The notes: generated by a model from the sequence alone, not told the origin. A stretch of 60,106 bases of DNA, filler included, from Sphacelaria rigidula (GCA_964200075.2; 10 parts of 10 records of this genome joined end to end with filler, not necessarily neighbours in it); one strand, 5' to 3'; positions 5,922-60,106 are shown, counted from the first letter of the whole stretch. Made by a program: numbers and translations.

Positions 5922-6021
5922 NNNNNNNNNNNNNNNNNNNNNNNNNNNNNNNNNNNNNNNNNNNNTTAATTAATTAANNNNNNNNNNNNNNNNNNNNNNN
6001 NNNNNNNNNNNNNNNNNNNNN
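5922..6021. other. Artificial contig linker (44N-TTAATTAATTAA-44N)
   Basis: 100-bp spacer with a six-frame stop cassette; identical copies recur every 6020-6021 bp. Confidence 0.98.
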
Positions 6022-11942: not shown

Positions 11943-12042
11943 NNNNNNNNNNNNNNNNNNNNNNNNNNNNNNNNNNNNNNNNNNNNTTAATTAATTAANN
12001 NNNNNNNNNNNNNNNNNNNNNNNNNNNNNNNNNNNNNNNNNN
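11943..12042. other. Artificial contig linker
   Basis: Same 44N-TTAATTAATTAA-44N cassette. Confidence 0.98.
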
Positions 12043-17963: not shown

Positions 17964-18063
17964 NNNNNNNNNNNNNNNNNNNNNNNNNNNNNNNNNNNNN
18001 NNNNNNNTTAATTAATTAANNNNNNNNNNNNNNNNNNNNNNNNNNNNNNNNNNNNNNNNNNNN
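17964..18063. other. Artificial contig linker
   Basis: Same cassette. Confidence 0.98.
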
Positions 18064-18148: not shown

Positions 18149-19420
18149 CGGAGGCGCCGTGCCCGAGGCACGTTTTTACGCGATCTGGGTTCACTACAGC
18201 AAAAAAAAATGTGTTCTGTATGTAGCATACGTAGCCGGTACGGCTTAATAAAGCCTGGAACGGTAAATAATGGTTTGAAACCATTATCCAAAATTATCCA
18301 AAATTTTCATATAGCCATTCCCATCATCACCATTGTGATGATAATGGCCAGCTATATCTGGGACCATTTCCGCGCTCTACTACTAACCCCCGGACCGCGA
18401 TGCGGGTAGTCCATCTGGATTACACATACTTTTTTCAAGTGAAATTGACGGCTATTCAGCAGGTGACCTACCGTCGCAGTCAAGAGGGTTAAACCCTCGG
18501 TACATGTCTCTTGCGACCGCGGCTGGATTCGAAGCAGATACGCAAAGAGAAAAGGAACAAGTAATGTATCGCAATCAAGCAAGCAAGCAGTCAATCAATC
18601 CCCAGGAAAAAAACAATCAATTAACCAATAAATCATCAACAAAATATGAAATATGCTCGTAGACGGGGGTGTTATACCCCGTCATCTTTGTCTAGCTCAG
18701 GCGCATGTTTCATGCAAGACATGCCCCGATGCGGCTATAGGCCGTAGGTACCTTACTCTTCATCCTCATATGTGAAGGAATCCCTACAGTTCAGCACACC
18801 AGGACATAATTGGCAATTGGGTTTCTTCGTTACCTGTTCATAGCCACGTATCGCATCTGCATATCCCCGTTCCTGCTGCTGCTTGTTGCGTGGTTCGGAT
18901 GTGCGGATAACAACTTGGACTGCAACGGAACTACAAACGCTGAGACAAATACCGCACTACATGCACTCAACGCCAAAGTAAGCAGAAGGTATATTGAACC
19001 CATAATCGTTCGCCACCTATAACCTCCGGCGGTACTGTGTGCTGCAATTACTGTACCGACTGCACTCTACACGGTGAATGGGATCAGAGAGAATATTTGC
19101 GGGTCTGAAGAGTGAAGCATATGTGAAATAATAAAACAAATACTGAAGATCATCAGGAAAACGGTAACCGCAAAGGGGGTCAGGGAACAGCGCTTATCAA
19201 GCCGAGCGGGGGTGGTGTACATCTGATGTTGATATTTTCATGAAACGGATAAACGTGGCAGTAAAAATTATCTGAAGGTACAGTCTGAGCGAGAAAAACG
19301 ATTCATTTCAAGACGCAGACGTTTTATGTTTCCAGAGCTTTGAGTCTCGTCTTGTAGCTCCAACATAAAAAAGATCAACTCGGCAGGGGTCAGCCATCGC
19401 GGCGGGCGTGCGGGCGAGTC

Positions 19421-21469
19421 ATGCAGAGGGGCTTCCTGCTCACCGCCAACACGCCAACGGAACAAAAGCAGCTTGATCAAGATGGTTCAAACACATGGAA
19501 ATGTCGGTGCACCCTGGTCAATGAGAGCCACGCTATAAGATGTCTCGCCTGCGGGATTCCCAGACCAAGACAGGCACAGCGAACTGCGGCCGCGGGGCGA
19601 GGTGCATCTCCCACTCTAGGACGCGCCGTTAGCGGAGCAAGTACTTCTAGTGGAAAATCGTCCAGGTCTTCTGAATCGAGTTCTCCAGCTGGTGTCACCA
19701 CCGCCATAGCCGGGGCGGACGGGATCGAGCTAGCTCGCAGAAGTAGGCCGTCGTCATCCAGTAAAGCCGAAAAGTCGGCCGCACCAGCAGCGATCTCAAC
19801 CGAAAAGAAGCGGGGTAACACCATCAGGGTGGCGTCCGGCGGACAGTCGAGATCTGCAGCTAGCCGGTTAGATGTGGGAGGATCTCGCGCGGATGCGGTA
19901 AAGTCGCAGAGGCGCAAGGGTTCTTCGTCGAGCGTGAAGGAAGGAGGAACAAGGAAGGGTGGAGGGGCTCGAGCAACAACAGACAGGAAACGGTCCGCGA
20001 GTGGAAACAAAAACGGTAGTTGCGCCGCGCCTCTCGCGCCGTCGGCCAACAGGAAACAGCGATCAGCTGCAGTGACGTCGTCGGGCACCCCACAAGTAGC
20101 CGTTGCAGCGGGTCTCGTCGTACCTTCATCGTCGCAGTCGATTTCACGGAAGAGTTCATCGTCCATGGAGGAGGGCGATCCCGCAGCTGAGGCAGCTGAG
20201 GCGGCATCGCGACAGCTTCGGGCCGACGAGGCGCACGGGATAAAGCGACGGGCTGTGGCGGCTGCGCTGGCCAGGGCGGCGTATGGACGGGCGAAGAGAC
20301 TAAAATATGATGCCATTGACGTGGACTGGTCCCCTAAAGATCACGTGGAGGGCGCGGCTAGACGCATCTGTGCCACCTTGGGCATAAGCAGCCTGGAATC
20401 TCCGACCGAAGGAAGGACTGGGAGCGGTGGGGGAGGTCGGGGCTACGGTGCTTCTGCGCCTGCGGAATCGGGTGTGTTGAACGGTGCTGAGTGGCAGACG
20501 CTGGAGATGAGTTCATTGTTTCCGTTGCCGCCACCCAAACCTCCTCGATACGTGAAGCGTGGGGTGTACTCGTCGGCACCTGATGCTGCGGCCATCGCTG
20601 TCGCGGCTGGATACGCCGTCTCTATCGAGCAGCCACAGGCGGCAGCGACAGCAAGAGTCTTGGCAGCGGCGCCACCGCCCTTCCGCCCCATTCACCACGC
20701 CGCTATCCCTGAAGGTGAGGTTCTTGTGCAAGCACCGAAGCCCCTCAGGGCTACGGACGGCATCGGCGGCATCGGCGGCGTTGGCAAGTCACGTTCGAGC
20801 TCGGTGTCCTCTGGTGTCAGCGATGTGAGTGGTGTCAACAGCACATCGGCTGACGGAGATGCCTCATCGACAGCCGCTGCGGCAGAGGTTATTGGCAGGG
20901 CAGTCGGAGTGGACGGTGGCGGTGGCACGGGTGGAAGTGCGGGAGGCGGTGGGGACACTGACAGTCAGTCCGCGGACGGCACGGATGATGCCGCCTCTAC
21001 TGGCACTGCAACAACACTCGATTCCACTGAGTCGAGCATGACCCTAATGCAAAGAGCGAGTGCTTACAAGGCTATCTTCAAGAACGGAGGGTTACAACCC
21101 AAGAAGCGTCCGCGGAGCCCGGTCGTAAGCGCCCCACTGCGACTGCCGTATCCCATTGCCCCCTTCGGAGTTAGCCTTGCCACGGACGATCTTGAGCGCC
21201 GACCGCCGTGCACAGACGACCATGGATATGTACAGACTGAGGTGGGATCGGAGTGGGCTTGGGGGTTATTGAGCGAGGACGGCCAGGGCAGAGATGATGG
21301 CGACGGGGTGGCAAGGGTTCCGCACAGAGATTTCCGCCTTCCTTACAACGTGATTTACGACGTCCAATACGGCGCGTTCCGGAAAGAGTTCGGGATTCTT
21401 GGCATACGGGGCGTGAATGACGCAATGAACGAATTCGAAAGCATTCAGTCCAACGTCTACATGGGCAAG
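19421..21469 (+). CDS. SET-domain histone lysine methyltransferase (SET2/ASH1/NSD-like), large exon 1 with a RanBP2-type zinc finger and long low-complexity linker
   Basis: 683 codons; WKCRCTLVNESHAIRCLACGIPRP; ends FESIQSNVYMGK|GT, typical of the segment before the AWS domain. Confidence 0.85.
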
Positions 21470-21821
21470 GTGCGCTCACATTTTGTCTATGCGTGGGTAC
21501 GTACCGCGAAGTGCTACTTCGAACGATAGTTCCCGACCTGTTCAACTGTTTCATCAAGTACGGGCGACGGCGCAGGCCCATCGAAGGCGAATATTAGCAT
21601 CTCTTCCTTCGCCCTGATAAACCATTGGTGGTCGAATCGTTGCGATACTGGAATTGACATCCCGACCAACACGAAAACAAACACGTTTGGGTGACAAGCA
21701 AAAGCAATAACGTCCTCTGTCATTCCCGCCCAAACCCCCCTCCCGTGTTACCCCGACGGTACGCTCCCTCGCCTTTCACGTCCACCCGGCTTTTGTCGAT
21801 GTATGTTTTTTTTTTCATTAG

Positions 21822-23984: not shown

Positions 23985-24084
23985 NNNNNNNNNNNNNNNN
24001 NNNNNNNNNNNNNNNNNNNNNNNNNNNNTTAATTAATTAANNNNNNNNNNNNNNNNNNNNNNNNNNNNNNNNNNNNNNNNNNNN
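23985..24084. other. Artificial contig linker
   Basis: Same cassette. Confidence 0.98.
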
Positions 24085-27000
24085 CGGGTTCTCGCCGGAC
24101 CAGGCTTGCACTCAAACCACCAAGCGCGAAGCACCGTGGTGTGTGTGGAGGAGGGGGGTACGTGGGGTCTCGGAGGTTTTGTTTTGGGCACTCTCAAGTG
24201 GCCTGAAAAATATCCTTGAAAGACTCCCACGTACGCTCCTCAACTTCGAAACCAGCCCAGTCGACCAACACGATCAACGAACGATCGTCTGCTTCTGCCA
24301 CTCGGACAATACTAGCCATTTCAAATCGCCCCTGAATGAAGGCGTTCTGGAACACGCTTAACGTCAGCCGTAACATTAAGCTGCGAGTCTGCATAAAACC
24401 GCAAACGAGCTACATGGGCGGTCTGAACACGACCCGAAACAATGTTCGGCATCTCAAACACGTGCGGGCGATGAGCCCCAACCACTCTCCATGGACCAGT
24501 CCATGCCGCCATCAACTTCGGCGTAACGCCCGGACGACGCACGCGTGCATACAAGACAATGTTGCCTACTTCAACATTCGGCAATCCCAGCCCCGACGAG
24601 GACCCCTCACGTCTACGTGCATGTTCAGTGGCAACACGTTCCTGCACTCGAACGTGGAGACGTTCTTGCAAGTCTAAGACTCCTTGCAATGCACACGTTA
24701 TTTAAATAACGTCCAAGACATCACATTTCCAGTCCCCCGCCGACGAAGACGCCAGCACTGAGGAAAACGTCCAAGGAGCACGACCAAGTACGTCCACCCA
24801 CTCGGAAACCGCTCAACACTGCTCGAGAAGAATAGAGCGAAGAGCACGAACTACTTCCTTGATCATGCGTTCATACGTGCCGTCAGACCACGGAGAATAA
24901 GCCACCGCAAACTGGTGATCAACGCGCAAAGCCTCTCGCAATCTGGCGAAGATCGCATTTATGAAATGCGTGGCGGTATCACTCACCCACACACGCGGCA
25001 CCCACAAAGTTCTGCACCAATTTAGCAAAGATGCAGCAGTTGATTCCGCAGTACACACTGTTATTGGTTTCAGAGACACAAACTTTCTCAAATCATCCAT
25101 GATTACCAAAAATGTTTCAAAATCCACCATCCTCCGACAAACCTCGAGAAGCTAGCGGGCCACTCTCGCCCACGTACAAGAAATCAGAATGAACGACTTC
25201 ATTCGGCATGGTTCCATGGACCGTTTCGCCGACAGGGCGGGGAACAACATTGCCCGCCCTCAAGTCAGCATAGTGAAGACACTGGCGGACATATTCGCGC
25301 ACACGAGTTGTTATCCCCTGCCAGAAACAACACTCTTGCAAGTGCACGAGCGTCGAAGCCACACCACGATGCCCGGCGTCGCGCATGTGCGCGCAAATCA
25401 TCAGACGTACCTGCAACTGCTTGTCAGAACTCGGAATCCACAAATTTTTCGGCCACGCACATGCACACAAAATAGATCTTCATTGTCCAAGATAGCAGTA
25501 CCAACGTCCGACTCGAAAGATTGCACATCCGCATCTTCGCCCACAAGGTCTTTTCGTTGCGCTTGGCGGACAGCAGATTTGGACGGCATCGAGTCATCAG
25601 GTTCACACGGACCATACACAGTCACAGCACGCACCGGCATTTGCATTTCAACTGTAGGCACCTGCATAACCAAGCTACCCCAATGGCACTCAGATGCATC
25701 CAGAAACATTGACACCTAACAATCAGGACGAGGGTGGAACAGCGTCACGGAATGAGCCACCAGATCCTTCGCTGCCGCCCACGCCTGAAGCCTGCCCTCC
25801 GTCCAAAATGCAGCATTCTTCGGAAACGCCATATCTGGACTGGACCATCCCGCCTGCATATTCCGCAACATCAGCCCAAGCGCCAAAAGAGCCGCCATGC
25901 ACGACGCCAACCTACTCGACTTCACCGGATCGTACCGCCGCGGCTTCGCCTTCACTGCGGACGCCCTAGGTTGTAGCTGAAGACGCATGGGCTCCACGCG
26001 CGCAGGGAGATCACCCCGCAGCGCACGACGAAACGCGTTGATGCGGCAATGTAATACGCCGCGCAGGCGCTTCGCTTTTGAAACGCTGAGGCCTGTCGCC
26101 CCAGCATCCGTCACGCTCTCCTCCAGCGCGACCTCCCGAGCGAACGCTTCTTCCGCCGGAATCATTGGCATCTTCGGGCCGCGCTCTACCAAGCGTTTCA
26201 CCGCCGCATCCTGCTCCTCGGTCACCTGCCCTCCAACGTCCTGAAAAGCATCCACCGACAAGCTCACGTGGCGACCGCCCAAAACGGGGGGCGTTTCCAA
26301 GCGCGGACTAGGCGGAGACATCCGCGTCTTCATGAGGTCCCACAACCGCCGATCGTCGACTCCAATATCCTTGAGCATCGGCAACCCCAGAGGAATAACG
26401 CCATCCGACCCCGGCATAACCGCAAACGAGATCGGAGGCAACTGCGCCGGCCCCCAGGAAGTCGTGAAAGTCAGCTGCAGCGGAACAGTACGCTCTGTGA
26501 CGTGAACATGCTGGCTCGACGCGATGACGGCCTACCGCGCCCCGAGCGAATACGGCTTGCGCAGCGGCACACCCGGGAGAAGACGCTCCAACATCTCTAC
26601 AATCTGCGCTGACAGACTCACATGACCAGTCCAGTGGGCGCCAAAATCCCACATAGCCCGAACCGCAATGGTTCCACGCTTCTTTTGATTTGGAAGACAC
26701 AGCTCCGCAGGAACGTTCCTATCCACACACTCCACTGGAAATTTATTCGCCAACCGATGCGCCGCTAATCCCACTTGACGCCACGGCTGCGCAAGCTGCG
26801 CAAGCTGCGCAGGCGAAGACGTCCCGGCAGGTCCAAACGGCACCGCCGGCGGGTATGACCCCCAGCCAGCAGACCAAGAATTTGGCGAACCTCCGACCAG
26901 CGCGTCAGCAGGCGTCGCGCCTGGCGCTGCTGGCGGTGTCGCCGCCGGCGCCACCACCGGCGCCGGCGCAGTGTTCGACACTGTAGAAGTCGGTCCCACC

Positions 27001-28086
27001 TGCACCGCCCGTTGCGAAGCAGCAGCAGGGGCAGCGGCGCCGGACTCAGAACCAGACCCATGCTGACGCCGCTGCCCCTGCTGCTTCTGCTGCTGCTGAG
27101 GACTCGACGGCGACCCTCCACCGCCGGAGGATCCGCCGCCGCCACCCCGATTTCCTCGTCTTTTATTCGTATGCTGACCATGCTGATGACGCGCGGCATG
27201 AGACTGCCCAGACTCTCCACCGGAAGACGTTGGGCAATCGCGCGCGTAATGACCGACCTGGCCACAACCGACCTGGCCACAACAGTGGCAAATGCCCGCC
27301 GCATGCCCAGCATGCTTTTTGATCGCCGCAACCAATTGAGGCGGGGTGATTATGATCTTCTTATTCTCCAAACAAGCAAACACTCTCTGCACATGAGTTG
27401 GCATTTGTTGAGCAATTGGCACCACCTGATGCTGCACACCAGTTAGCGTGCTTCACACGCTTCTTGTACTCAAAGTCGTTCGTAATAAAAGTGCGAGACG
27501 CACTCTCTTAGTACTTATCCTCGTATTGAGGAGGTTGCAACTTTTTCCGAATGACCACGGGTGTCGTCATAGCTGTAACCGGCTATCTACGAACCTTTTG
27601 CAGGCCAGCGGACCTTCGCAAATTGCACTCTTCCTTGCTTCGTCGCCGCACCATACAGTTATAGGAGCCCTAAACTCCCGGTGCACATAGCTCCAGCAAG
27701 TCTCCAGTCCGGATCAATCACAAGCCAACCACCTTTCTGCAGCTACCATCAGCTTTGAACCCCCTTCACACGTCCGTGATCCTTCAGGTTGTCCCCAGCC
27801 TCCAGACTCTCCCGCCGAAATCCTTCCCAGAAGGTTTCTAGCACTAACATTGGCACTAAAATCGATATTGTGACGCCAGCCGAAGAAGGACTGGTGGATC
27901 ACTGTTGTTGAGGAACTCCCCAGTCTTACTGGCCTCATTTTCAGTTTTCAGCCTGTACAACATATCATTATCATGGAGTGCTGTTCCAAGGCATCCACCT
28001 GGAAACGCCAGGGTATTAACCTAGTGTCCCCGGTCATTATCCAGATCATCACTACCAACTCAACGTAACGGCGTAATTTCGCCACA
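24085..28086 (-). mobile_element. Degenerate Ty3/gypsy LTR retrotransposon with chromodomain integrase; RT core deleted
   Basis: Gag knuckle CHCCGQVG(CGQVG)HYARDC; protease-like WDFGA; RNase H start FLDASECHWG; integrase H...GHRG...C, SDTATHF, YSPWSDGTYER, WTGPW; chromo-like LVDWAGFEVEERTWES; many frameshifts; probable 5' LTR begins TGTGGCGAAAT at 28086. Confidence 0.9.
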
Positions 28087-30005: not shown

Positions 30006-30105
30006 NNNNNNNNNNNNNNNNNNNNNNNNNNNNNNNNNNNNNNNNNNNNTTAATTAATTAANNNNNNNNNNNNNNNNNNNNNNNNNNNNNNNNNNNNNNN
30101 NNNNN
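30006..30105. other. Artificial contig linker
   Basis: Same cassette. Confidence 0.98.
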
Positions 30106-36026: not shown

Positions 36027-36126
36027 NNNNNNNNNNNNNNNNNNNNNNNNNNNNNNNNNNNNNNNNNNNNTTAATTAATTAANNNNNNNNNNNNNNNNNN
36101 NNNNNNNNNNNNNNNNNNNNNNNNNN
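36027..36126. other. Artificial contig linker
   Basis: Same cassette. Confidence 0.98.
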
Positions 36127-36840: not shown

Positions 36841-38745
36841 TTATTATTATTATGATTATTGCCGCACATTAGTCCGATCTCTCGAACCCGTCGTCACAGA
36901 CGTAAGCTCGTCTTTCCAATACCGTCCCTGCCATCCCTTGCAAGGTATAGAGTCCTCCGTCATTTTTTTTTATCCAACCTACATACAAGAACAACGCAAT
37001 GAACTAAAATATTACCAAAAAAGTGATAGGAAGAGAGACGTCAAGAAAAACATGGGAAGAAGTAGCTTGCCCGAGTTCAACGGGGTGAAAGAAAAAATTC
37101 AGGTCTACTAAAAAAAGCACACAGACAAAAAAAGGGGGAAGAAGAAAATACCAGAAAATACAGATGACACAAGGCAATTGGCATGGCCACGGAGCAAGGG
37201 TCAAATCAAAGACAACCTCAGGCACCCTCATAGACAACCACCACAGCTGCTCTGAAAGACCGTAGATGTACTAGTGAGTCTTCCACCCGATGGACTACTG
37301 GTTACTCTTTGGAGGTCCCCGGTAGGCACGGAGGTAGCTCCAGTGGTACAACAGCAAGCGGTGTCTTGACATGGCGTGCTTTCGTCCAGGCTGCCATGTA
37401 CACCTTACCCCCCTCCTCTACAACCCGGGGCCATTCTCAGGATCATTCGAACACATCTTGGGCAACCTGCGCCCACGATATCGCATTTATTCCGAAGTAC
37501 GAGCAGTAGTCCGTGGTAGAGTGCTGTAGGTGCCTTGCTGGTCGACCCGCTCTCGTCTTCCCCCCCAACCATGACCCCACGCATGACGATGTTGGGGAGG
37601 CGTTCGTCATGCATGCGCACAACGCGGCCGGCGTGTAGCGAACCTCATCACGGTGGCCTCAATGCACTCGCAGCCAGTTCTTTCGAGGACCCCGTGGTAT
37701 GGCAGTATGTGGTTGTCAGGGGTGCTACGGCTTGAGGTATGCTTATTGAGGCATCTCAGCGGAAATCCTCGAAAGGCCTCCCGTAACGCGCCGAAGTTGT
37801 CGTGTGCGATCGCTCAGGTCACGCAGCCGTACAGCATTACCTCGATCACTTCAGTCTTCAGGAGACGAAACTTGGTGGCCAGGGCGATTATACGGGTTGT
37901 CGCATACCGCTCTGCTGTACTTGTAGAAGCACGTCCAGGCCTGGCCAATGCGGCTGTGGATCTCGGGAGTAACACCACCGATGCTGCTGACTCTTCCGCC
38001 AAGGGAGAGGAACGACTCAACTTGCTTGTTGTATCTTTGGCCCGCTGGCTCCACCTCGATCGTATCCGCCTCCATGTTCGGGGGGCACATGTGCATAGTG
38101 ACCGTCTTCTTTTTCGCCACGAGGAGATCGAATGCCGCACATACTTCGACGACGGCCGTCATCATCTTTGCCAGGCTTACTCGGGACCGCGAGGCGATGC
38201 CAGCGTCGTGGGCGTATAGCATAGCCCAGAGCACTTTGCTGAGTTCGCCCCCGGTCTTGCCGTCCCTTTCAGCGATGCGGATGAAGTCTTGCGCCACCGC
38301 TTTATTGATCAAGAATCGGTCGAACGTTACCGTCAGCAGTACCGCCGCAAAAAAGATGTGGAACAGACTGAGGGAAAGCACACAACCTTGCCGGCGGCCC
38401 TGGTTAACGTTAAACCTCTCAGACGTCTCACCGCTGTCCAGGCGTTTGCATGCCCGCATGCCGTTGTGGAATTGGTGGATGATGGAGGCTCCCATGGCGG
38501 GGATACCCTTGCGTGCTAACCCTTTCCAGAGAAAACTTCAGTCCACTGAGTTGTATGCCTTTTGGAAGTCAATGAAGCACATGTACAGAAGAAGATTCTT
38601 CTCTCTGGCCAGTTCTTGGAGCCTGCGCACAACGAATATTATGTCGACTGTGGAACGGCCAGGTCGGAAACCGCTTTGTGCTTCTGGGAGGATTCTCTTC
38701 CACTCGCCATAGGCGCTGAGGCGAGTCGCAACTATCTTTAGTACC
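36841..38745 (-). mobile_element. 5'-truncated, inactivated RTE-clade LINE
   Basis: RT motifs LPEAQSGFRPGRSTVDIIF, CFIDFQKAYNSVD, QGRRQGCVLS, LYAHD (YADD mutated), HDERLPNIVMRG; stops and frameshifts; (TAA)n tail at 36841. Confidence 0.93.
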
Positions 38746-42046: not shown

Positions 42047-42146
42047 NNNNNNNNNNNNNNNNNNNNNNNNNNNNNNNNNNNNNNNNNNNNTTAATTAATT
42101 AANNNNNNNNNNNNNNNNNNNNNNNNNNNNNNNNNNNNNNNNNNNN
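42047..42146. other. Artificial contig linker
   Basis: Same cassette. Confidence 0.98.
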
Positions 42147-48066: not shown

Positions 48067-48166
48067 NNNNNNNNNNNNNNNNNNNNNNNNNNNNNNNNNN
48101 NNNNNNNNNNTTAATTAATTAANNNNNNNNNNNNNNNNNNNNNNNNNNNNNNNNNNNNNNNNNNNN
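48067..48166. other. Artificial contig linker
   Basis: Same cassette. Confidence 0.98.
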
Positions 48167-51690: not shown

Positions 51691-53002
51691 TGAGGCCGGA
51701 CCCGATGTATCACCGCTGACTCTCCCATGGAGGAGTCACATGTGCGGCCAGTAGAGTCGCTCATTTTGATAATACCTACCCGACAGCCCGTCTCGTCGAT
51801 TACTCGATGATGACGATGAGTAGCGCTCTGTGCTGAAAGTGATATCAAAGGGATCGAGAGGTATCAAGTATGTCCTGCGATGGGTGGGGGATGGTGAGCT
51901 GGGGCAGGTAGGTTCGTTCACCTGCACGCTCTCTTTTGTTTTTCTTGGCCATCAGCCCGTGACGTACCGCCACTCATCTGATTGATCGCCATCGTTCGCC
52001 CATGTATTCAACATAGTCTGTGAAGGGACGTCACGAGGTTGCCGACGGTCACGGTTACTGATCACACCCAAGTGAAACTCTATGCTTAAGTATTACTGAG
52101 AGTGCTTACTCAGTATTTGAGGTGAAACAGCTTCTGCCCTTCGAGAAGGGCGCCGGGCGGAACCCTGCAACAATGCTGTTCCTCAAGCGCCAACCTCGCG
52201 TGACCAGGGAGTATCAGAAGCTACACAGTATTCTCGCCTTCACGCTAGCCGGCAAAGAGGTTCTTCATGCGCTGATTGGGCGAATGGTCAACGGTCCGCA
52301 GGCAGTTGTCGTTCTGTCGTGCTCCGATGTGTCTCAGAAGAAGCCGGGCGATTGTATCGCGTGTTGTTATGTGTTGGGGCCACAAGATCAACAAGAGTGC
52401 CACTAAGCAGAAGGTATATATGGTCCCGCCGAAGAACATCGCGACCAAACCGACGAAGGACCAAGGCAGTCACTCGGCTTTGAAGTCCAAGACCAAGAAC
52501 AATACCATGTACACGCAGAAGCTACTGATGACGGCTTTGCGAGGGATCGTGGGGGTGATCAATATTACTCAGAAGGATACAGAGGGAGTACTTCTCAAGT
52601 TCGGAGCGTCCGTCCCGTTCAGCTTCCTCAATTCCAATGGAGATGAGAGGAACAGACATGATCAATATGTGGTTTAGTTGCGAGAACGATGGGAAATGAG
52701 CACACCTCACGTCGCCCCTTCAGCCGCAGGCAGTTGACAGCCCGCCTCTAACAGTCGTTGCAGAAGTGTTGAAAGTTTTGGTGCACCAATATCAGATTTG
52801 TTCGAATGCATTCAGTTAGCATTGTTAGTATTCCGAACGGGCAGACTGATCTATGCATTTTCCCCTTGACGCGCGTTCATCTTTTCCTCGTGCCGACTCG
52901 TTGGCCGTGCCACCGTGTTAGTCTGCTCAGGTTCAGGACATTCCTACAAACGTGACGTCGGCCTTCGGAAAATGACCCATGAAAAGAGGAACGTATTCAA
53001 AC

Positions 53003-54086: not shown

Positions 54087-54186
54087 NNNNNNNNNNNNNN
54101 NNNNNNNNNNNNNNNNNNNNNNNNNNNNNNTTAATTAATTAANNNNNNNNNNNNNNNNNNNNNNNNNNNNNNNNNNNNNNNNNNNN
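54087..54186. other. Artificial contig linker
   Basis: Same cassette. Confidence 0.98.
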
Positions 54187-54353
54187 GGTACGTGGCCAAA
54201 TGACTCCTCCTTGCTTGGATTATTTTTCTAACCGTTTGGTGTACTTTCTGCCCTCCCCCCCCCCCGTGCGTGTGTGTGTGTGCTTGTGTGTTTACTTCGT
54301 GGTTACCGGATTTCGGGGGTGGTGATGGTACATGTTATGATGGTGTGACATAG

Positions 54354-54521
54354 GACGTGTCGCTCGTGGTGAAGGGGTCCACCGGGAAGAGGAATTCCCG
54401 GAACGTTCCATACACGCAGTTTTTCGTCACGGGCATCAAGGACGAGGCGAACCAACAGGTGTACTGCTTCGTTTCCCTGCAGCCGGTGTCTGGGCCAGAG
54501 GCAGAGCCTTCACAGACTATG
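54354..54521 (+). CDS. Tandem PAS/LOV protein: exon with the C-terminal (PAC) strands of a degenerate LOV/PAS domain
   Basis: TAG/GTGAG, phase 0; DVSLVV...YTQFFVTGIKDEANQQVYCFVSLQPVS aligns by eye to aureochrome-type D.SVCLLNY...FWNQFFIAALRD.GG..TNFVGVQC.VS. Confidence 0.7.
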
Positions 54522-54611
54522 GTGAGCGCTGAGCCCTGAATCGGTTGACCGGGGAGCAGTCAATTCAACGTGGCGTCCCGTGTATCACACCAATATAACG
54601 CACTACTGTAT

Positions 54612-54615
<4 letters not shown>

Positions 54616-54650
<35 letters not shown>
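54616..54650. repeat. (CT)n microsatellite
   Basis: Direct reading. Confidence 0.95.
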
Positions 54651-54656
<6 letters not shown>

Positions 54657-54834
54657 TTGGGTAGGGTCTACGCGATATTTTGGTATTTTCAAAGGCGGAG
54701 ATCCAATTCATACCCACACTGGCGGCCAGGCCAGTGCTGTTGTTCCCCTCTTTGAAGCCCATAAAAGTCACCGGAAATAGGTTGGGCAGGTGATGTACGA
54801 CGTATCAACATACCGCAATATCGGATACACCCTA

Positions 54835-55151
54835 GCCCCGCGCCGGTGGTGTAATGGTCCGACCGTCGCTGTCAGGGTAAATAGAACGAGGGTTCGATTC
54901 CCGATGCGTTGGGTTTTCTTCCTCACAGTATGTGATTTCCACCGTGGAAAGCGTGAGAACGTGAGTGAACGAAGTAGTCGACCGGGTTTGTGTGGCGTGA
55001 GTTGACGCGGTGCGGGAGTCATGATAGTCATGACCCAATCCGCGAGACCAAACTGCAAGGCGTGTGTACCGGGAGAGATGGGCTGATCCCTGTAGACCAC
55101 AGACTCGAGCCGAAGAAAGAGGGGGGGTTCGAAGTGCGACAAGAAAAAAAA
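54835..55151 (+). mobile_element. tRNA-derived SINE (tRNA-Asp-like head) in an intron
   Basis: A-box TGGTGTAATGG, CTGTCA anticodon-like loop, B-box GGTTCGATTCC, ~240-bp body, A-rich tail; second copy at 32700. Confidence 0.75.
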
Positions 55152-55418
55152 TACTTTTATTATACTTAGATTGAGGGCTGGACTATCGGAAGATGGATCA
55201 TGATCGTGTACGTCCATGGCCGAACGCTAGATTGTGATAATGCACGTCCCTACCCAAACGTGAAATTTTGACGGTATCATGTGCGCCTCTCCTGGCCCAA
55301 ACATCAGATTGTGATCATGTACGTCCCTGATCCATGGTGACCCCCCTCCTCCGTCTATCACCGTTTCGACGTTGTTTTTGTTGCTGTTGTGTTCGGTCGG
55401 TTACGTCATTCTCCACAG

Positions 55419-55532
55419 CCATACCGATTCAGGCGGGCATGGGAATGCCTGAAGCCCTCGACGGTGTGGAGCCTTTTCACTCCGTACAAGACCCTGTGCG
55501 AGGCAGACGCAGGATTAGTTAGCGCGTTGCAG
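55419..55532 (+). CDS. Tandem PAS/LOV protein: linker plus A'alpha N-cap helix exon
   Basis: CCACAG/GT, 38 codons, phase 0; ends TLCEADAGLVSALQ, like aureochrome D.SLVKALQ; this frame is not in the ORF track. Confidence 0.75.
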
Positions 55533-56490
55533 GTATCTTGAGAAGAAAATAAGCACATGTATACATGTATATATATACATGATTTGTATTGGTGTGCTTA
55601 TTGTTGGATGTGTGAGGAATGTGGGGAAACAAATCATCAAAAAGTAGGCAAAATATATATTTTTCTGGGACACAATTTGCTTCATTGAATTAGCGGGCGA
55701 AGCTCATCACAGATAAGGGTAACCCGAAGTGAAAAGAAAGAAGCGCGACGATGGCCGAGCTTTCACACTCGGTACTGGCCCAAACTTACTTGAGGACTTC
55801 TCCAAAATCAGACGGAGGACTAGAACACGGGACATATCCTGTATCAGTACAGTGCCGCAGCGAAAACGCTCAAGCCCTGTCTCATGCGTTAAAGCTTCCA
55901 TCGCCTGTACCGTCGTGGTGTGTTCACACATTGCAAGGATGATCTGGATCGCATGAGCTGCGATATTTTCGTTGTGCTTGTCTCTGCAGAAAACAGTGTC
56001 GGTCGGCATGCAGTGCTGGCTGCACACTGTCGAAAACTTGATGGGTGTGTTGACTGTTTCCTCTTCCGTAAGACGAACAACGCGCTGTCCGTTGCTGCGA
56101 CACTCCTGCTGGTGCTGTGCGTTGGGGGCCTGTACTGTACCGTACTATTTGTGTTGTGTTGGATGAAACTGTAATATGCTGAAACGCTCTACGAAATTAG
56201 ACCGCACGAGCACTAGGTGTCAGACTACTCCCCTGGCTATTCCCAAGCCAAACTGAATCAATCCAGCCGAAAACAATTTCATGAGGCACGGCCTGAGGCC
56301 AGGCCTTGTCTTTTTGTGAGCAAATATTTCTTCGATCGAAAAAGTGCGGTGGGGAACAAAAATGCCGATCTGATGAGTCGTGAATTCAACCTAAAATGCT
56401 ATGGTTGAAATCACGACCTATCATATCGGAATTTCCCTTTTCTATTGCACATTTCCGATAGGAATTTTCACACCCCAAGAAAGGGCCTCA

Positions 56491-56680
56491 GGCCGTGTCT
56501 TCTCGAATTGTTTTCGTGTCGGAAACGTGTGGTCGAATCGAACATGCTCGTTTCTGATTCGTCCACGCTGCTAATTTTCTCACATGGTTGAAAACATGAA
56601 TGCCGCGGACGAATCAGGTACGAGCAAATTCGATTCCACCGCACGTTTTTGAGTCGAAAACAATGTGATAAGACACGGCC
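56491..56680. mobile_element. PIF/Harbinger-like MITE with adjacent partial copies (about 56260-56770)
   Basis: TCA|GGCCGTGTCTT...AAGACACGGCC|TTA. Confidence 0.75.
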
Positions 56681-56891
56681 TTATCAAATTGTTTTCGACT
56701 CGAGAACATGCGGTCGAATCGAACTGGTCGTTACGAGGCCGATTCTGATACGTCCACGGCATTTATGTTCCTAGATGGCTTCAAGTCCATTTTGTAATTC
56801 GTTGCGTGCGACGGGCAGGGTCAAAAACAAAAAAGCTTAGCTTTTTCGAGCGAAACGAGCGGCGGAATGAACGAAGCGGCACGTAACTCCC

Positions 56892-57943
56892 ATGTTGCAG
56901 ACAACCGTGCCAGATACCAGATACTACCCTTTCACAGAGGTACGCAAAACCCAAATTGTTCGTTCGCAGCTACTTACTCAACCTTCCAGCGCAGATCACG
57001 AACTGAGCGCAGGGATATACACACTGCAGTGGATGGAAACTGACACCACCACTGTTTTGGCGTGGTGTGTTCCTTTTTGTTAGCGAAAACTTGGGCATCT
57101 AATTTTGTTGCAGGATCCACCGACGGAGTTGCGTGTCGGGATGGGCGATCGAATTCCCAACGCGCTCATGAACAGTTGAGACGGTGCAAAACTGCACACG
57201 GTTCAAATCTGCTTCGCACCCTCATGTATGCAGAGAGTCAGAAAGCTGTCTCGTCTGTCAAATCTGCTGTATGTCGCGTTGCCCGCTTGTTTTCCACGTC
57301 TCGGCTGCATGCTGCGCGATACACACACACTACCTACACGGCACAGTAGTACAGGCTGCCACTGCTGGACAGTCTGTACTGTCTGTACCATACTAAATAT
57401 AGGTAAAGAAGTACCTATGTTGCAGACAACCGTACCACATACCAGGTACTACCCTTTCACAGAATCACGCAAAACCCGAAATGGTTCATTCACAACTACG
57501 TACCCAACCCTGCGGCATGAATCACGAACTCAGCACAGGGATATATACTGCAGCAGAGACAGGAAACCGATACCACCACACTTTTAGCATGATGTGTTTC
57601 TTGTTGTTGGCAAACACTTGGGCATCTAACTCTGTGGCAGGATCCACCGACGGGGTTGCGTGTCGGGGTGGGCGATCGATTTGCCAACGCGCTCATGTAC
57701 AGTAGAGGCGGTGAAAAACTGCACGTGGTTCAAATCTGCTCCGCCTCGTCCTGTATGCAGAGAGTCAGAACTTTGTGCTGTCTGTCAAATCTGCTGTGCG
57801 TCGCGTTGCTCCCTTCTTGTCCACATCGCGCCCGCATGCTGCGCGAAACACGCACCATTTGGACAGTTCAGGCCGCCACTGTACTGTTGTGCAGTCTGTA
57901 CCGTCTGTTCTATACCTAAATTGAATATAAGTGAAGAAGTACC
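56892..57943. repeat. Diverged tandem duplication, period 526 bp, intronic
   Basis: ATGTTGCAGACAACCGT at 56892 and 57418; both units end AAGAAGTACC. Confidence 0.9.
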
Positions 57944-58353
57944 GCTTCACAAATTTCGCTTCGCCTTTTCGATTCGAAGCGTGCCAATTCGCTCGGATCC
58001 AAACCTCGCAAAGTAAACTGAATCAGTTCCGCCGCACAATCTCGTTGGAGTCGGAGAAAATTTGGTACGACAACGCCACAGGTGGAGGTCGCGGTGTTGC
58101 GCGAACACCGAATCCACCGATCTCTATTATGGGACCTTCTCTCTGAACCTCTTCTCTGAACTCATGCTTGAAACTTTCAATACGGAGTTGCGTGATATTC
58201 TGACTCGGCTGAATCACACTAGCTCCAGTACTGGTTTCATGAACCGTTCCTTTCGATGTCTCGCGCTGAACCGTACTGGCTTCTGATGTTCATGTAGAGC
58301 ATATCGCTTGGATGTACCGAAGCATGATATTGTTTGCTTCCAGTAGACCCAAA

Positions 58354-58648
58354 GAAATGTTTGTACACAATGGTTGGTATTCGATTGTCCTTGATTCCAG
58401 ACTGGAAAAAGACGCGAGAAAATTCATGTTTAGGGGCAAATGAGCAGTAAAGCCAGCTCGTCCAGAACGTGTTTTCGTCCATGATGGGCACCTGGGTGTC
58501 AATTTTAGCTCTGCCAAGGCACACTGTGCCTAGGGAACACCTTGCACCTTCCTTGTCCGAAGGTTCTTCTACGCCTTGGGTCGGCGTTAGGGTAAGCGTT
58601 GGGGTTGACGGCACCTCCTCAGTACCAATCCTTGTGTACGAACATTTC
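58354..58648. mobile_element. MITE with ~26-bp TIRs and degenerate TTAGGG units
   Basis: GAAATGTTTGTACACAATGGTTGGTA / TACCAATCCTTGTGTACGAACATTTC. Confidence 0.7.
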
Positions 58649-59353
58649 GTTAGATGCCCTCATTATTGAAACCGGTACACTCACAATCACCCTTGCCCTC
58701 ATGACGCCTTCTCATTTCTCTTGCCTCGTTCGAACGGGGCGTAACGACCCCAACACGGGGTAGTAATGTAATTATTTTCGAATGGTAACCCCTTCTTGGA
58801 CGAGAGGGGTTCCGTGTTTCTCCTGATGTTTGTTTGTACAGAGTAACGAGTACAAGGATTGTCATTTTTCATGCAGCACGATCTGCAAGTAATTGTCATG
58901 ATTTATTTCAATGGATCAGTGGGTATGCGGTCTTCCGTCACGAGAAATGACTCTTCTCTTTCTCTTTTTCGATATGTTCTTCCTGATCATGCTCCATTTT
59001 CTGTGTCCCGTCATTTTTCACGTTCTCCCCTACCGACCGTGGCATGGTTTCCTCCCCGAATACTCATAACGCGACTAAAAATTTTCATGGGAGAACACCA
59101 CGGGTAGTAATCGAAGAGGGACGAAAGTATAGATGAGACTTGATTTTATTTGCATGTGCTTCAGAAAAAAAGCAGCATGGGTTTGCGTTGGCCCTGGATG
59201 TTGTGCATGTTGAACGCCCACCGGTTTTTCACGGGCGTGTCCGTCCGTTCTGTTTCGTTTTCCCAACTCCCACTACTGACTGTGTTGGCCTTGATATGAC
59301 ATGCGCTTCCGTCGTGTTTTTTTTTCGTCTTTTTGCTCTAAAAAATTGCACAG

Positions 59354-59408
59354 GACCGAAGAGAGATGTTCTGCATCACTGATCCAGAGCTATGGGACAA
59401 CCCGATTG
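59354..59408 (+). CDS. Tandem PAS/LOV protein: start of a canonical LOV core
   Basis: GCACAG/GTGAG; DRREMFCITDPELWDNPI(V) is the LOV F.ITDP..PDNPIV signature, in frame with the previous exon; not in the ORF track. Confidence 0.88.
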
Positions 59409-60106
59409 GTGAGCGTGCTTTTATACACGTGGTGGAAGTGAAATCATCAAAGAGGCCATTTTTTTGTAGCCGTCGTTTTCGGTTGTAATAACGAACAGAG
59501 AAAGGAAGGTGTGGCTGCGGGTTAGAGAAAGTCGAGCGCCAAAAACCTGCCACTATGCGTGTTCCCCGCATCCAGCGCAGTAGAGAGGTGTGTCAGATGT
59601 GCACAATAGCCGGTGATTCAGATGACGTTTACAAACGATGAAAATCAAAATCAAGCCATGTTTGTCCAGACTGATGGATCATGATTCATCTCATTTGTAC
59701 ATTTTCTGATTTTTTCCCATCACAGGACGGAAAATTTGAAAATTCCAGCCGGCGCGACGTTGACTGATTTTTGGTACAAATGTTCAAATGGTCTCGGCTG
59801 GTGTCCAAACTCATTTCAATCCTGACGCTATTGCCGCACAGCGTTTCTTCCTTTTGTCCTTTAGTTTGAGATTTCCGTGTTACAGATTGTGCCGACAGCT
59901 TTCAATTTTTATCGGGTGTTGCGTATTAATAGTGATTTTCGTGATAAATCCAGTGTGTGTCTGGTGGGGAGGGGGGGAAGGGGGGGGGGGGGGGTTTCCT
60001 TACCTCTTCCTCTGCCATTGTCATGCGCCATACTAGAACATATAGAAAAGCGTCAACAGCTGCCGACTACTATCGTGTGTTTTTCATGTTTTTTCGGTTT
60101 GCTTTT

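What the first reader, a model, noticed from the sequence alone, without database searches (positions are those of the whole stretch)
54354..59408. Spliced tandem degenerate-PAS + LOV protein: candidate atypical blue-light receptor, mostly missed by the ORF track
Seen: three in-phase exons spread over 5 kb splice to DVSLVVKGSTGKRNSRNVPYTQFFVTGIKDEANQQVYCFVSLQPVSGPEAEPSQTM-PYRFRRAWECLKPSTVWSLFTPYKTLCEADAGLVSALQ-DRREMFCITDPELWDNPI. Known: D..LV.ALQ followed by F.ITDP..PDNPIV is the A'alpha cap and start of a LOV domain. In canonical aureochromes the LOV is preceded by a bZIP; helmchrome has paired LOVs with RGS domains. Here the upstream module looks like a second LOV/PAS C-terminal half. It keeps QFF, the (R/K)D turn and the FVxxQ glutamine but lacks both flavin-binding asparagines (LLNY, FWN). 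Inference: a flavin-less pseudo-LOV coupled to a LOV, either helmchrome-like or a distinct LOV-LOV receptor. The photoactive NCRFLQ exon is not seen on this contig.
Basis: partly seen in the sequence, partly recalled or inferred. Interest (0 to 1): 0.72.

Follow-up and report, generated by a model that had tools for sequence, protein, structure and literature searches.

The report
Brown-algal tandem pseudo-LOV/LOV photoreceptor gene
Three small exons in this brown-alga DNA are truly spliced together and form the middle of a conserved, so far unstudied blue-light sensor that pairs a burnt-out light-sensing domain with an intact one.

Summary
Exons 54354-54521, 55419-55532 and 59354-59408 (+) have GT..AG borders. 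They match brown-algal 409-451 aa "putative LOV domain-containing proteins" exactly at the exon borders. One contig in each of three runs of one study joins them with no mismatch.

Orthologues show the whole protein. It has an N-terminal MG...C lipidation-type signal and a PAS domain that aligns end to end with the protein's own LOV but has lost 7 of 8 flavin/adduct motif residues. Then come a conserved linker, an intact LOV with NCRFLQ, a conserved post-LOV helix and an acidic tail.

There is no bZIP, RGS or kinase domain. In trees the LOV nests with aureochrome-type LOVs (99/95), apart from the RGS-LOV (helmchrome-like) and phototropin/plant-LLP clades. An LLP affinity is not formally rejected (AU p 0.057).

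The family also occurs in Vaucheria, Tribonema and Chrysoparadoxa. Chrysoparadoxa also has a colinear relative with two intact LOVs.

The gene is not helmchrome-like. Its sequences are already catalogued, but I found no functional description. The most likely mechanism, which is inferred, is a membrane-tethered blue-light switch that acts through light-gated protein binding.

The parts
54187..54353 (+). 3' end of the upstream intron (the piece starts here after the linker); acceptor AG at 54352-54353
   Evidence: sequence, linker; the spliced contigs carry other sequence before 54352, which reads as the previous coding exon.
54354..54521 (+). Exon A, 168 nt / 56 aa, phase 0. It encodes the C-terminal half (last three beta strands) of the flavin-less pseudo-LOV domain plus the conserved EPSQTM end.
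   Evidence: tblastn P0001 aa131-186, E 1.3e-26. 68-88% identity to 17 proteins. Joint 54520->55418 in X1-X3. Strands 133-138, 151-160 and 166-176 in the model.
54522..55418 (+). Intron, 897 nt, GT..AG. It holds a (CT)n run and a very high-copy repeat at about 54784-55179.
   Evidence: Skipped in X1-X3 contigs and covered by X5. Depth in X5 is 1.6-3.0e5 in bins 54784-55179, against about 70 in single-copy bins.
55419..55532 (+). Exon B, 114 nt / 38 aa. It encodes the conserved inter-domain linker (PYRFRRAW.C...W.LFTPYK.LC) and the A'alpha cap of the LOV domain (D.GLV.ALQ).
   Evidence: tblastn E 1.7e-21. The linker is 94% identical among 11 brown algae. It is modelled as helix 186-195 and A'alpha 214-225 at pLDDT 85-92.
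55533..59353 (+). Intron, 3821 nt, GT..AG, full of repeats: hairpin-type inverted repeats at 56490-56723 and a ~527-nt tandem duplication at 56889-57852.
   Evidence: Skipped in X1-X3 contigs. Repeats. No Pfam match on the 4 ORFs of 128-145 aa that lie inside it (4 of the 6 scanned in the piece).
59354..59408 (+). Exon C, 55 nt (18 codons + 1 base). It encodes the start of the LOV core (DRREMFCITDPELWDNPI + G..).
   Evidence: tblastn E 6e-7. Joint 55529->59351 (cut +3) in X1-X3. The loose end after 59408 reads on as VFVSDDFVDM.
59409..60106 (+). Start of the next intron (GTGAGC donor). The NCRFLQ exon is not within the window.
   Evidence: No tblastn match downstream. The spliced contigs leave the stretch at 59408.

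Best explanation
**What it is.** The three exons are the middle of an expressed brown-algal gene. The gene belongs to a conserved family of effector-less, two-domain LOV proteins of about 330-450 aa. The domain order, read from full-length orthologues, is:

1. Met-Gly N-myristoylation-type signal, with Cys8 in brown algae.
2. A pseudo-LOV domain: LOV fold with A'alpha cap, but with the flavin/adduct residues lost.
3. A conserved ~35-aa linker.
4. An aureochrome-type LOV with every flavin-binding and adduct residue intact.
5. A conserved post-LOV helix.
6. A variable acidic tail.

**How it most likely works (inferred).** The protein is tethered to a membrane by its lipidated N-terminus. In blue light the intact LOV forms the FMN-cysteine adduct. 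This shifts its A'alpha cap and post-LOV helix. Through the rigid conserved linker, that changes which surface of the pseudo-LOV/linker unit is free to bind. The output would be a light-gated protein-protein interaction (binding or release of a partner, or self-association) rather than an enzymatic or DNA-binding activity. The plant PAS/LOV protein PLP works this way.

**What is shown.** Exon structure, splicing, family membership, domain folds, loss and retention of motif residues, and LOV lineage.

**What is inferred.** Flavin binding and photocycle, lipidation, membrane location and mode of output.

**My odds.** Gene structure 0.98. Family identity 0.95. Functional blue-light LOV 0.8. Lipid anchoring 0.6. 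Output by light-gated binding 0.5.
For: **Splicing and identity.** See. The window peptide keeps 72 of the 73 columns that are invariant in 10 brown-algal orthologues over aa131-242. The only change is Y238W.

**Architecture.**
- PAS_9 scores above its cut-off in 7 of 7 orthologues at about aa226-333.
- No bZIP, RGS, kinase or F-box appears in any of the 7, nor in the 5 non-brown members P0032-35 and P0054.

**Intact LOV.**
- N264, C265, R266, Q269, R282, N297, N307 and Q328 are invariant in 17 family sequences.
- The best solved relative is the PtAUREO1a LOV, E 8.8e-34.

**Pseudo-LOV.**
- hhalign of the N-domain against the protein's own LOV: probability 92%, E 6e-8, 22% identity.
- The replacements are N264->G, C265->F, R266->V, Q269->K, R282->T, N297->G and N307->T. 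Q328 is kept.
- AlphaFold model of the N-terminal 187 aa: pLDDT about 90 over aa40-180, with A'alpha plus a 5-stranded PAS topology.
- The Foldseek top ten are all aureochrome LOV chains (best 6i20_A, E 2.6e-7, TM 0.72, 20% identity).

**Internal duplication.** P0001 is colinear over 290 aa with Chrysoparadoxa P0043 (29% identity, E 4e-34). P0043 has two NCRFLQ LOVs and the same linker motif.

**Lipidation signal.** 14 of 16 full-length family members start MG with the PROSITE-type myristoylation pattern. All 11 of 11 brown-algal ones also have Cys8.

**Conservation by region.** Among brown algae: linker 94%, LOV 95%, post-LOV helix 93%, pseudo-LOV 68%, tail 39% identity.

**Lineage.** The careful ML tree of 97 LOV domains gives:
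- family LOVs, 16 rows, support 100/96;
- nested with the P0043 LOVs and short ochrophyte LOVs, 21 rows, 99/79;
- then with bZIP (aureochrome) and CAP-Gly LOVs, 30 rows, 99/95.

**Precedent for the output mode.** Plant PLP has a non-functional first LOV plus a functional LOV and no effector. [quoted passage not shown]
Against: - No experiment on any family member was found. Flavin binding, photocycle, lipidation, location and partners are all untested.
- The window itself holds only 112 of about 430 residues. The Cys-bearing exon, the N-terminus and the tail are known only from orthologues and from the loose ends of the spliced contigs.
- 2 of 16 family members lack the MG start pattern (P0032, P0034). 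Several genome-derived models (P0052, P0053, P0057, P0081, P0085, P0174) carry in-frame extensions upstream of the MG, so the true start is inferred from conservation only.
- In the full-length AlphaFold model the LOV core (aa260-310) has only pLDDT 55-65 and the post-LOV helix 40-65. No domain arrangement can be read from it.
- That X1-X3 are RNA runs is the tool's guess. They come from one study.
Confidence: 0.6

Rival explanations
1. It is a member by descent of the plant/green-algal PAS/LOV (PLP, also called LLP) family, acquired or inherited by ochrophytes. It would then do the same job, light-dependent inhibition of a metabolic enzyme such as GDP-L-galactose phosphorylase.
For: - The layout is the same: a dead first LOV plus a live LOV, about 400 aa, no effector (for PLP; here).
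- Many effector-less 2xLOV proteins of 340-500 aa, including a Chlorokybus one (P0058), are among the best library hits.
- The AU test does not formally reject a tree that holds the family with phototropin and 2xLOV domains (delta lnL 25.3, p 0.057).
Against: - The free ML tree puts the family with aureochrome/CAP-Gly LOVs at 99/95, and puts the phototropin and 2xLOV domains outside.
- BLASTP against P0058 aligns only the live LOV (46% and 44% identity to its two LOVs). The N-domain matches over just 33 aa at E 0.015. The ochrophyte P0043 is colinear over 290 aa.
- In plant PLP, LOV1 lost only the cysteine and is restored by a single change. Here 7 of 8 motif residues are gone.
- The N-terminal lipidation-type signal is not a described PLP feature (recalled). 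The PLP paper reports cytoplasm and nucleus.
Confidence: 0.1
2. It is a bZIP-less partner of aureochromes. Its aureochrome-type LOV would heterodimerise with aureochrome LOVs in blue light, so that the tethered protein titrates or relocates these transcription factors. This would be a regulator of the VVD type rather than a receptor with its own pathway.
For: - The LOV, with its A'alpha cap, is nearest to aureochrome LOVs in sequence, fold and tree.
- Solved aureochrome LOV entries include light-state and parallel dimers (titles of 5dkl and 5a8b).
- The family co-occurs with aureochromes in ochrophytes.
Against: No test of any interaction was made. The family is restricted to the brown/yellow-green algal branch in my searches, while aureochromes are found across photosynthetic stramenopiles (passages of PMC12558739). 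The strong conservation of the linker and pseudo-LOV is not explained by LOV-LOV pairing alone.
Confidence: 0.12
3. The N-terminal domain is not a passive scaffold but a second sensor. It would be a PAS pocket re-tooled for another ligand or cofactor, so that the protein integrates blue light with a chemical signal.
For: - The domain folds confidently as a complete PAS.
- It is under constraint: 68% identity among brown algae, with invariant blocks such as ALTHHRTPFAV and GKRN..VP.TQF.
- It has been kept without flavin residues in all 16 members across several algal classes.
Against: Between brown and non-brown members the domain is only 22% identical, and the pocket-lining positions are not conserved. 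This argues against one shared ligand. Flavin-free LOV-like PAS domains that act as interaction modules are well known (EAG/hERG PAS are among the Foldseek hits).
Confidence: 0.12
4. It is helmchrome-like, that is, part of a flagellar RGS-LOV receptor.
For: Brown algae have helmchrome (passages of PMC8017926). RGS multi-LOV proteins score high against the family profile because they carry many LOV copies.
Against: No RGS domain appears in 7 of 7 brown-algal orthologues or in the 5 non-brown members. Transcript-derived orthologues are complete at 409-451 aa with start and stop. RGS-linked LOVs form their own clade (100/97), outside the 74-row clade (99/91) that holds the family.
Confidence: 0.02

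Closest known systems
Plant PAS/LOV protein (PLP, also called LLP; Arabidopsis At2g02710, tomato Solyc05g007020)
   Same: About 400 aa, no effector domain, a photochemically dead first LOV-type domain followed by a live LOV. It acts through light-dependent binding to a target protein (PMC10291033, abstract and passages).
   Different: - The LOV here belongs to the aureochrome-type clade rather than the phototropin/LLP clade (99/95; AU p 0.057).
- The first domain has lost 7 of 8 motif residues, not just the cysteine.
- It has an N-terminal MG...C lipidation-type signal.
- It has its own conserved linker and post-LOV helix.
- The target is unknown.
Aureochromes (bZIP-LOV transcription factors of photosynthetic stramenopiles)
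   Same: Nearest LOV by sequence (5a8b, E 8.8e-34) and by tree. The A'alpha cap is conserved. Both occur in the same organisms.
   Different: No bZIP. The LOV is preceded by a pseudo-LOV and a lipidation-type signal, not by a DNA-binding domain. It is therefore not a transcription factor by itself.
Helmchrome and other RGS-LOV proteins
   Same: Stramenopile proteins with several LOV domains.
   Different: No RGS domain. The protein is small (about 430 aa against 1300-4200 aa). The LOV clade is different.
Phototropin LOV1-LOV2 module
   Same: Two tandem LOV-type domains joined by a linker. The second carries the conserved flanking helices. Membrane association (recalled for phototropins).
   Different: No kinase. 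The first domain is flavin-less. Anchoring would be by lipidation. The LOV lineage is different.
Chrysoparadoxa australica 322-aa LOV-LOV protein (P0043, CAM9180844.1; uncharacterised)
   Same: Colinear over 290 aa, with the same F.P...L...D pre-cap motif before each domain, the same linker motif, and an MG start with a nearby Cys.
   Different: Both of its domains keep NCRFLQ. It looks like the undegenerated form of the same architecture.

Membership tests
LOV photosensor domain (C-terminal domain of the protein) | GxNCRFLQ motif with the adduct-forming cysteine | tested here: met
   GINCRFLQG is invariant in 17 family sequences. The exon that carries it is outside the window. The spliced contigs read on into the LOV after 59408.
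LOV photosensor domain (C-terminal domain of the protein) | Flavin-contacting Arg, Asn, Asn and Gln of the core (the position list is recalled from phototropin/AsLOV2 work) | tested here: met
   R266, Q269, R282, N297, N307 and Q328 (P0001 numbering) are invariant in alignment A3. PAS_9 scores above its cut-off in 7 of 7.
LOV photosensor domain (C-terminal domain of the protein) | Binds FMN and shows a blue-light photocycle | not testable with these tools
   Needs recombinant protein and spectroscopy.
LOV photosensor domain (N-terminal domain; exon A of the window) | Same motif and flavin-contact residues | tested here: not met
   N->G, C->F, R->V, Q->K, R->T, N->G and N->T. Only the last Gln is kept (hhalign mapping). 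The fold is LOV-like, hence 'pseudo-LOV'.
Aureochrome | bZIP domain N-terminal to the LOV | tested here: not met
   No bZIP at E <= 1 in 7 orthologues. bZIP was found by the same scan in 5 control hits: P0145, P0159, P0160, P0165 and P0172.
Aureochrome | LOV of the aureochrome lineage | tested here: met
   A 30-row clade of family + P0043 + short LOVs + bZIP-LOV + CAP-Gly-LOV, support 99/95.
Helmchrome | RGS domain(s) with multiple LOVs | tested here: not met
   No RGS. The RGS-LOV clade is separate, 100/97.
Phototropin | C-terminal Ser/Thr kinase after LOV1-LOV2 | tested here: not met
   No Pkinase in the orthologues. It was found in many control hits.
Plant PLP/LLP | Two LOV-type domains, no effector, first one photochemically inactive | tested here: met
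   PLP description in PMC10291033.
Plant PLP/LLP | Common descent with streptophyte LLP domains | tested here: inconclusive
   The free tree separates them (99/95). The AU test of the joint clade gives p 0.057. The N-domain does not align with LOV1 of a Chlorokybus 2xLOV protein beyond 33 aa.
N-myristoylated / S-acylated membrane-tethered proteins | Met-Gly start fitting G-{EDRKHPFYW}-x(2)-[STAGCN]-{P}, with a nearby Cys | tested here: met
   14 of 16 family members fit. 11 of 11 brown-algal members also have Cys8. The N-terminus of the window's own gene is not in the window.
N-myristoylated / S-acylated membrane-tethered proteins | Actual lipid modification and membrane location | not testable with these tools
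   Needs labelling with a lipid analogue and localisation of wild type against G2A/C8A mutants.

The most novel reading that the evidence does not exclude
This lipid-anchored pseudo-LOV/LOV family could be the missing membrane-associated blue-light receptor for fast, directional responses in brown and yellow-green algae. Such responses include photopolarisation of zygotes, phototropism and chloroplast positioning. These lineages have aureochromes, which act on transcription, but no phototropin (recalled; the table in PMC13436692, lists phototropins for Chlorophyta only). The family would then be a kinase-less functional substitute for phototropin, evolved from an aureochrome-type LOV by tandem duplication and decay of the first copy.
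Probability: 0.15. Interest if true: 0.8.

Novelty: new variant of a known kind. Interest (0 to 1): 0.5.

Why it matters
Blue light dominates under water. It controls polarity, tropism, reproduction and photoperiodic development in brown algae. The only LOV receptors discussed for them in the reviews and papers I could read are aureochromes and helmchrome.

This family has several properties that mark it as a candidate worth testing:

- It is found in every brown-algal order sampled here, including Ishige and Dictyopteris.
- Its LOV, linker and post-LOV helix are 93-95% identical among those algae.
- It is transcribed and spliced.
- It carries a membrane-targeting type of N-terminus.

It is therefore a concrete, testable candidate for the non-transcriptional blue-light pathway of these algae. 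It is also an independent evolutionary case of the 'dead LOV + live LOV' design known from plant PLP.

For annotation, the deposited gene model on this contig is truncated (exon C is missing and the donor is read through). Spliced small-exon genes of this kind are easily lost in fragmented brown-algal assemblies.

Tried and rejected
- **Pfam on the three exon peptides one by one** found nothing relevant, because they are too short.
- **No whole genome** is held for the window.
- **A false lead at 52062-52406 (+).** By eye this ORF looked like it might be the missing PAS half. It lies on another concatenated piece and has no tblastn match to any orthologue, so I dropped it.
- **ARAGORN** finds no tRNA in the window, so the tRNA-like look of the intron-1 repeat is unconfirmed.
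- **Rfam at E <= 0.1** gives one sub-threshold mir-1781 match (30.7 bits against a gathering score of 68) on an intron hairpin. I take it as chance.
- **The look-up of sequencing runs:** no RNA holder is listed by record. X1-X4 are 'RNA?' by the tool's guess. Parts of the stretch without cover in X1-X3 are not used as evidence.
- **Complex prediction**, two copies of aa40-365 of P0001: no answer (score 0.00). This counts neither for nor against self-association. The job was accepted after queue-full answers.
- **The search of earlier findings** gave nothing by place, sequence or words.
- **ESM Atlas by features** for aa40-226: the nearest clusters are PAS_9 families (0.96). This is only a consistent lead.
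- **Literature.**
  - Glantz et al. 2016 (PNAS), which I recall as the source of the 'putative LOV domain-containing protein' entries, is not held, so I could not check how it classifies these proteins.
  - The search was swamped by unrelated PLP/LLP abbreviations. One search found only papers citing Glantz et al.
  - I read passages of PMC13737086, PMC8017926, PMC12558739, PMC11774855, bioRxiv 2025.06.20.660589, PMC3384632, PMC3652789 and PMC13436692.
  - None mentions a PAS/pseudo-LOV plus LOV protein of brown algae.
  - I did not open their supplements. Domain-combination tables there (Coesel 2021; Commun Biol 2026) may list it.
- **Pseudo-LOV placement in the tree.** The quick tree placed the pseudo-LOVs of P0032 and P0034 near the family on very long branches. 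I left them out of the careful tree and draw no conclusion from their position.

Full report
**1. What the window is**

The 60-kb window is not one locus. It consists of ten pieces of about 5.9 kb joined by N44-TTAATTAATTAA-N44 linkers (N runs listed; linker seen). The finding lies wholly in the last piece, 54187-60106. Only about 5.9 kb of context is available, and no whole genome is held.

The other pieces look like a repeat-rich eukaryotic genome with retroelement-like ORFs. An NCBI partial protein identical to exons A+B is labelled Sphacelaria rigidula, a brown alga.

**2. The observation**

The three open frames exist at the stated coordinates, and each is bounded by AG|...|GT. Exon A is 168 nt, exon B 114 nt and exon C 55 nt. 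Together they give 112 codons without a stop.

A word-based search with exon A alone (56 aa, lengths 'longer') returned 17 proteins at E <= 10 among 22 candidates. All cover the whole exon at 68-88% identity. Every named one comes from a brown alga: Scytosiphon, Petalonia, Pylaiella, Colpomenia, Desmarestia, Saccharina, Ectocarpus, Dictyopteris and Ishige. The full-length ones are 409-438 aa and carry PAS_9.

tblastn of four of them against the whole window hits exactly the three exons, and the protein coordinates abut at the exon borders: P0001 aa131-186, 187-224 and 224/225-242, with E 1.3e-26, 1.7e-21 and 6e-7. Every other match in the window has E >= 0.33.

**3. Direct evidence of splicing**

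Eight public runs hold part of the stretch. I laid four of them. In each of X1, X2 and X3 (one study; 'RNA?' is the tool's guess), a single contig of 2779, 3140 or 3197 nt matches 54352-54520, 55418-55529 and 59351-59408 consecutively with 0 mismatches. It skips 897 nt (GT..AG) and 3821 nt (GT..AG).

The DNA-like run X5, from another study, shows neither joint and covers the introns.

The contigs run on beyond both ends. After 59408 they read ...VFVSDDFVDM, the next LOV residues. Before 54352 they read the end of the previous coding exon. That the runs are RNA is inferred from the clean removal of two canonical introns. It rests on one study.

**4. What the whole protein looks like (from orthologues)**

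- *Pfam.* PAS_9 scores above its cut-off in 7 of 7 orthologues at about aa226-333. A weaker PAS_4 match covers about aa66-178. It is above its cut-off in 3 of 7, below it in 3, and not listed in 1. No bZIP, RGS, kinase or F-box appears.
- *C-terminal domain.* This is a complete LOV. GINCRFLQG, the Arg of the F-alpha helix, both Asn and the final Gln are invariant across 17 family sequences. Its best solved relative is the LOV of Phaeodactylum aureochrome 1a (5a8b, E 8.8e-34, aligned from the A'alpha cap at aa215 to aa344).
- *N-terminal domain.* Exon A encodes its second half. It aligns end to end with the protein's own LOV, cap helix included (hhalign probability 92%, E 6e-8, 22% identity, 130 columns).
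The list of positions is recalled from general LOV literature.
- *Fold.* An AlphaFold model of the N-terminal 187 aa (17-sequence alignment) has pLDDT about 90 from aa40 to 180, with A'alpha, five strands and four helices in PAS order. All of its ten best Foldseek matches in the PDB are aureochrome LOV chains (6i20_A, E 2.6e-7, TM 0.72, 20% identity). Vivid, hERG/EAG PAS and phototropin LOVs follow.

'Flavin-less pseudo-LOV' is therefore a fair name.

**5. Other conserved features**

- *N-terminus.* 14 of 16 full-length members begin MG with the PROSITE-type N-myristoylation pattern. All 11 brown-algal ones also have Cys8. Some genome-derived models carry extensions upstream of this MG, so the start is inferred from where conservation begins.
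- *Conservation by region.* Among 11 brown algae the linker (exon B) is 94% identical, the LOV 95% and the 28 residues after the LOV 93%. The pseudo-LOV is 68% identical and the acidic tail 39%.
- *Full-length model.* The linker is predicted with pLDDT 85-92 (helix 186-195, A'alpha 214-225). The LOV core and the post-LOV helix are poorly predicted, so I read no domain arrangement from this model.
- *Constraint on the window's own peptide.* It keeps 72 of the 73 invariant columns, which fits a gene under constraint.

**6. Distribution and origin**

A profile search of 1.84 billion representatives found 19,851 proteins at E <= 0.001, mostly through the LOV. Single-stretch matches spanning both domains outside brown algae were P0032, P0033, P0034, P0035 and P0054, plus the partial P0037. 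The named ones are Chrysoparadoxa australica and Vaucheria litorea. Tribonema minus has family-type LOV fragments.

In all of them the first domain lacks NCRFLQ. Chrysoparadoxa also has a 322-aa protein (P0043) that starts MGVCAS. Both of its domains are intact LOVs. It is colinear with P0001 over 290 aa (29% identity, E 4e-34) and shares the linker motif.

The pre-cap motif F.P...L...D stands before both domains of P0001. This fits a tandem duplication of a cap+LOV unit followed by decay of the first copy.

A word-based search with aa1-226 alone found 21 proteins among 1408 candidates. All named ones are from brown algae.

**7. Which LOV lineage**

I labelled the best library hits by Pfam architecture. 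I then cut their LOV domains with an HMM of the family LOV and built trees.

Rows dropped before the careful tree were:
- P0028, P0029, P0039 and P0041 (RGS proteins);
- eight 2xLOV and three kinase proteins, removed for thinning;
- the long-branch rows: the pseudo-LOVs of P0032 and P0034, both domains of P0117, and three domains of P0036.

The careful tree (97 rows, 108 columns, LG+G4) gives these nested groups:

| Group | Rows | Support |
|---|---|---|
| Family LOVs plus a Tribonema fragment | 16 | 100/96 |
| + short LOVs of Sargassum and Synura, the unnamed P0151, and both LOVs of P0043 | 21 | 99/79 |
| + bZIP-LOV (aureochromes) and CAP-Gly-LOV | 30 | 99/95 |

Phototropin and effector-less 2xLOV (LLP-like) domains lie outside this group. 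RGS-linked LOVs form a separate clade (100/97), further out.

An AU test of the alternative 'family with phototropin/2xLOV domains' gives delta lnL 25.3 and p 0.057. That is not a formal rejection, and I named the group after seeing the quick tree. With few columns for so many rows, I treat the aureochrome-type affinity as likely, not proven.

**8. Mechanism**

Nothing here has been tested at the bench, so the mechanism is inferred from anatomy and precedent.

The intact LOV should bind FMN and form the cysteinyl adduct in blue light. There is no enzymatic or DNA-binding domain. The parts most strongly conserved, besides the LOV, are the linker and the post-LOV helix. These are the elements that move in other LOV proteins (recalled). 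The output is therefore most likely a change in what the pseudo-LOV/linker unit binds.

The plant PAS/LOV protein gives a worked precedent. It has a dead LOV1 and a live LOV2 and no effector. [quoted passage not shown]

The MG...C start adds a likely membrane tether, which PLP is not described to have.

The rivals are common descent with PLP, an aureochrome-titrating partner, and a second ligand in the N-domain. Each is given in its own section with the tests that would separate them. A homodimer prediction gave no answer and is not used.

**9. Comparison with what is known, and novelty**

- It is not an aureochrome (no bZIP).
- It is not helmchrome (no RGS, different LOV clade).
- It is not a phototropin (no kinase).
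- It works most like plant PLP/LLP but is probably not of that lineage.

The sequences themselves are already in UniProt and GenBank as 'putative LOV domain-containing protein'. I recall these as coming from the 1KP-based survey of Glantz et al. 2016, which I could not read.

In two full-text searches (13 and 36 papers) and in passages of eight papers and reviews on algal LOV receptors, I found no description of this architecture, its lipidation-type signal or any function. I did not open the supplements, and many subscription papers are not in the library, so 'undescribed' is provisional.

I rate it a new variant of a known kind.

**10. The rest of the piece**

Both introns are full of repeats:
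- a very high-copy element at about 54784-55179;
- hairpin inverted repeats at 56490-56723;
- a 527-nt tandem duplication at 56889-57852.

Six other ORFs of 90-152 aa on either strand of the piece have no Pfam match (0 of 6). I see no second gene in the piece.

Noticed in passing
window 5922-6021, 11943-12042, 17964-18063, 23985-24084, 30006-30105, 36027-36126, 42047-42146, 48067-48166, 54087-54186: The window is ten ~5.9-kb pieces joined by N44-TTAATTAATTAA-N44 linkers. Neighbouring pieces need not be neighbours in the genome, and any feature that crosses a linker is an artefact.
   Followed up: partly
window 54784-55179 (intron 1): A very high-copy repeat. Summed contig depth is 1.6-3.0e5 in the DNA-like run X5, against about 70 for single-copy bins, with many variant joints. 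Part of it looks tRNA-like by eye, but ARAGORN calls no tRNA. It may be a SINE-type element.
   Followed up: partly
window 56490-56723 and 56889-57852 (intron 2): Two nested hairpin inverted repeats (93-nt arms 77% complementary; 44-nt arms 89%) that look MITE-like, and a ~527-nt tandem duplication (83-87% identity). There is a sub-threshold Rfam mir-1781 match on the hairpin.
   Followed up: partly
P0043 (Chrysoparadoxa australica, 322 aa; not in the window): A small MG-Cys-start protein with two intact NCRFLQ LOV domains and the same linker motif as the family. It looks like the undegenerated form of the architecture.
   Followed up: partly
P0155 (955 aa), P0169 (436 aa); not in the window: Proteins that join a CAP-Gly domain (microtubule-binding type) to an aureochrome-type LOV. 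In the tree they sit with the bZIP-LOV proteins. I did not check whether this combination is described.
   Followed up: no
P0028 (4197 aa), P0029 (3055 aa), P0041 (2567 aa); not in the window: Giant multi-LOV proteins. One has 9-10 LOV copies with RGS and one has RhoGEF + RGS. One has RGS + 4 LOV + an ion-transport domain + a cyclic-nucleotide-binding domain + ankyrin repeats. These may be fused gene models.
   Followed up: no
window 19358-21529 (+), and ORFs to about 23811 (+): A 723-aa open frame rich in Ser/Ala/Gly. It is followed by frames with Cys-rich and GEYVGEV-type stretches that recall a SET-domain methyltransferase gene (by eye only, not searched).
   Followed up: no
window 24321-27452 (-) and 37851-38537 (-): Long ORFs that look like retroelement parts: a Gag-type zinc knuckle, integrase-like and reverse-transcriptase-like stretches (by eye only, not searched).
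   Followed up: no
P0144 and five cluster members (168 aa; Sargassum species; not in the window): Brown algae also have a separate short single-LOV protein. Its LOV is the nearest outgroup of the family LOV in the tree.
   Followed up: no
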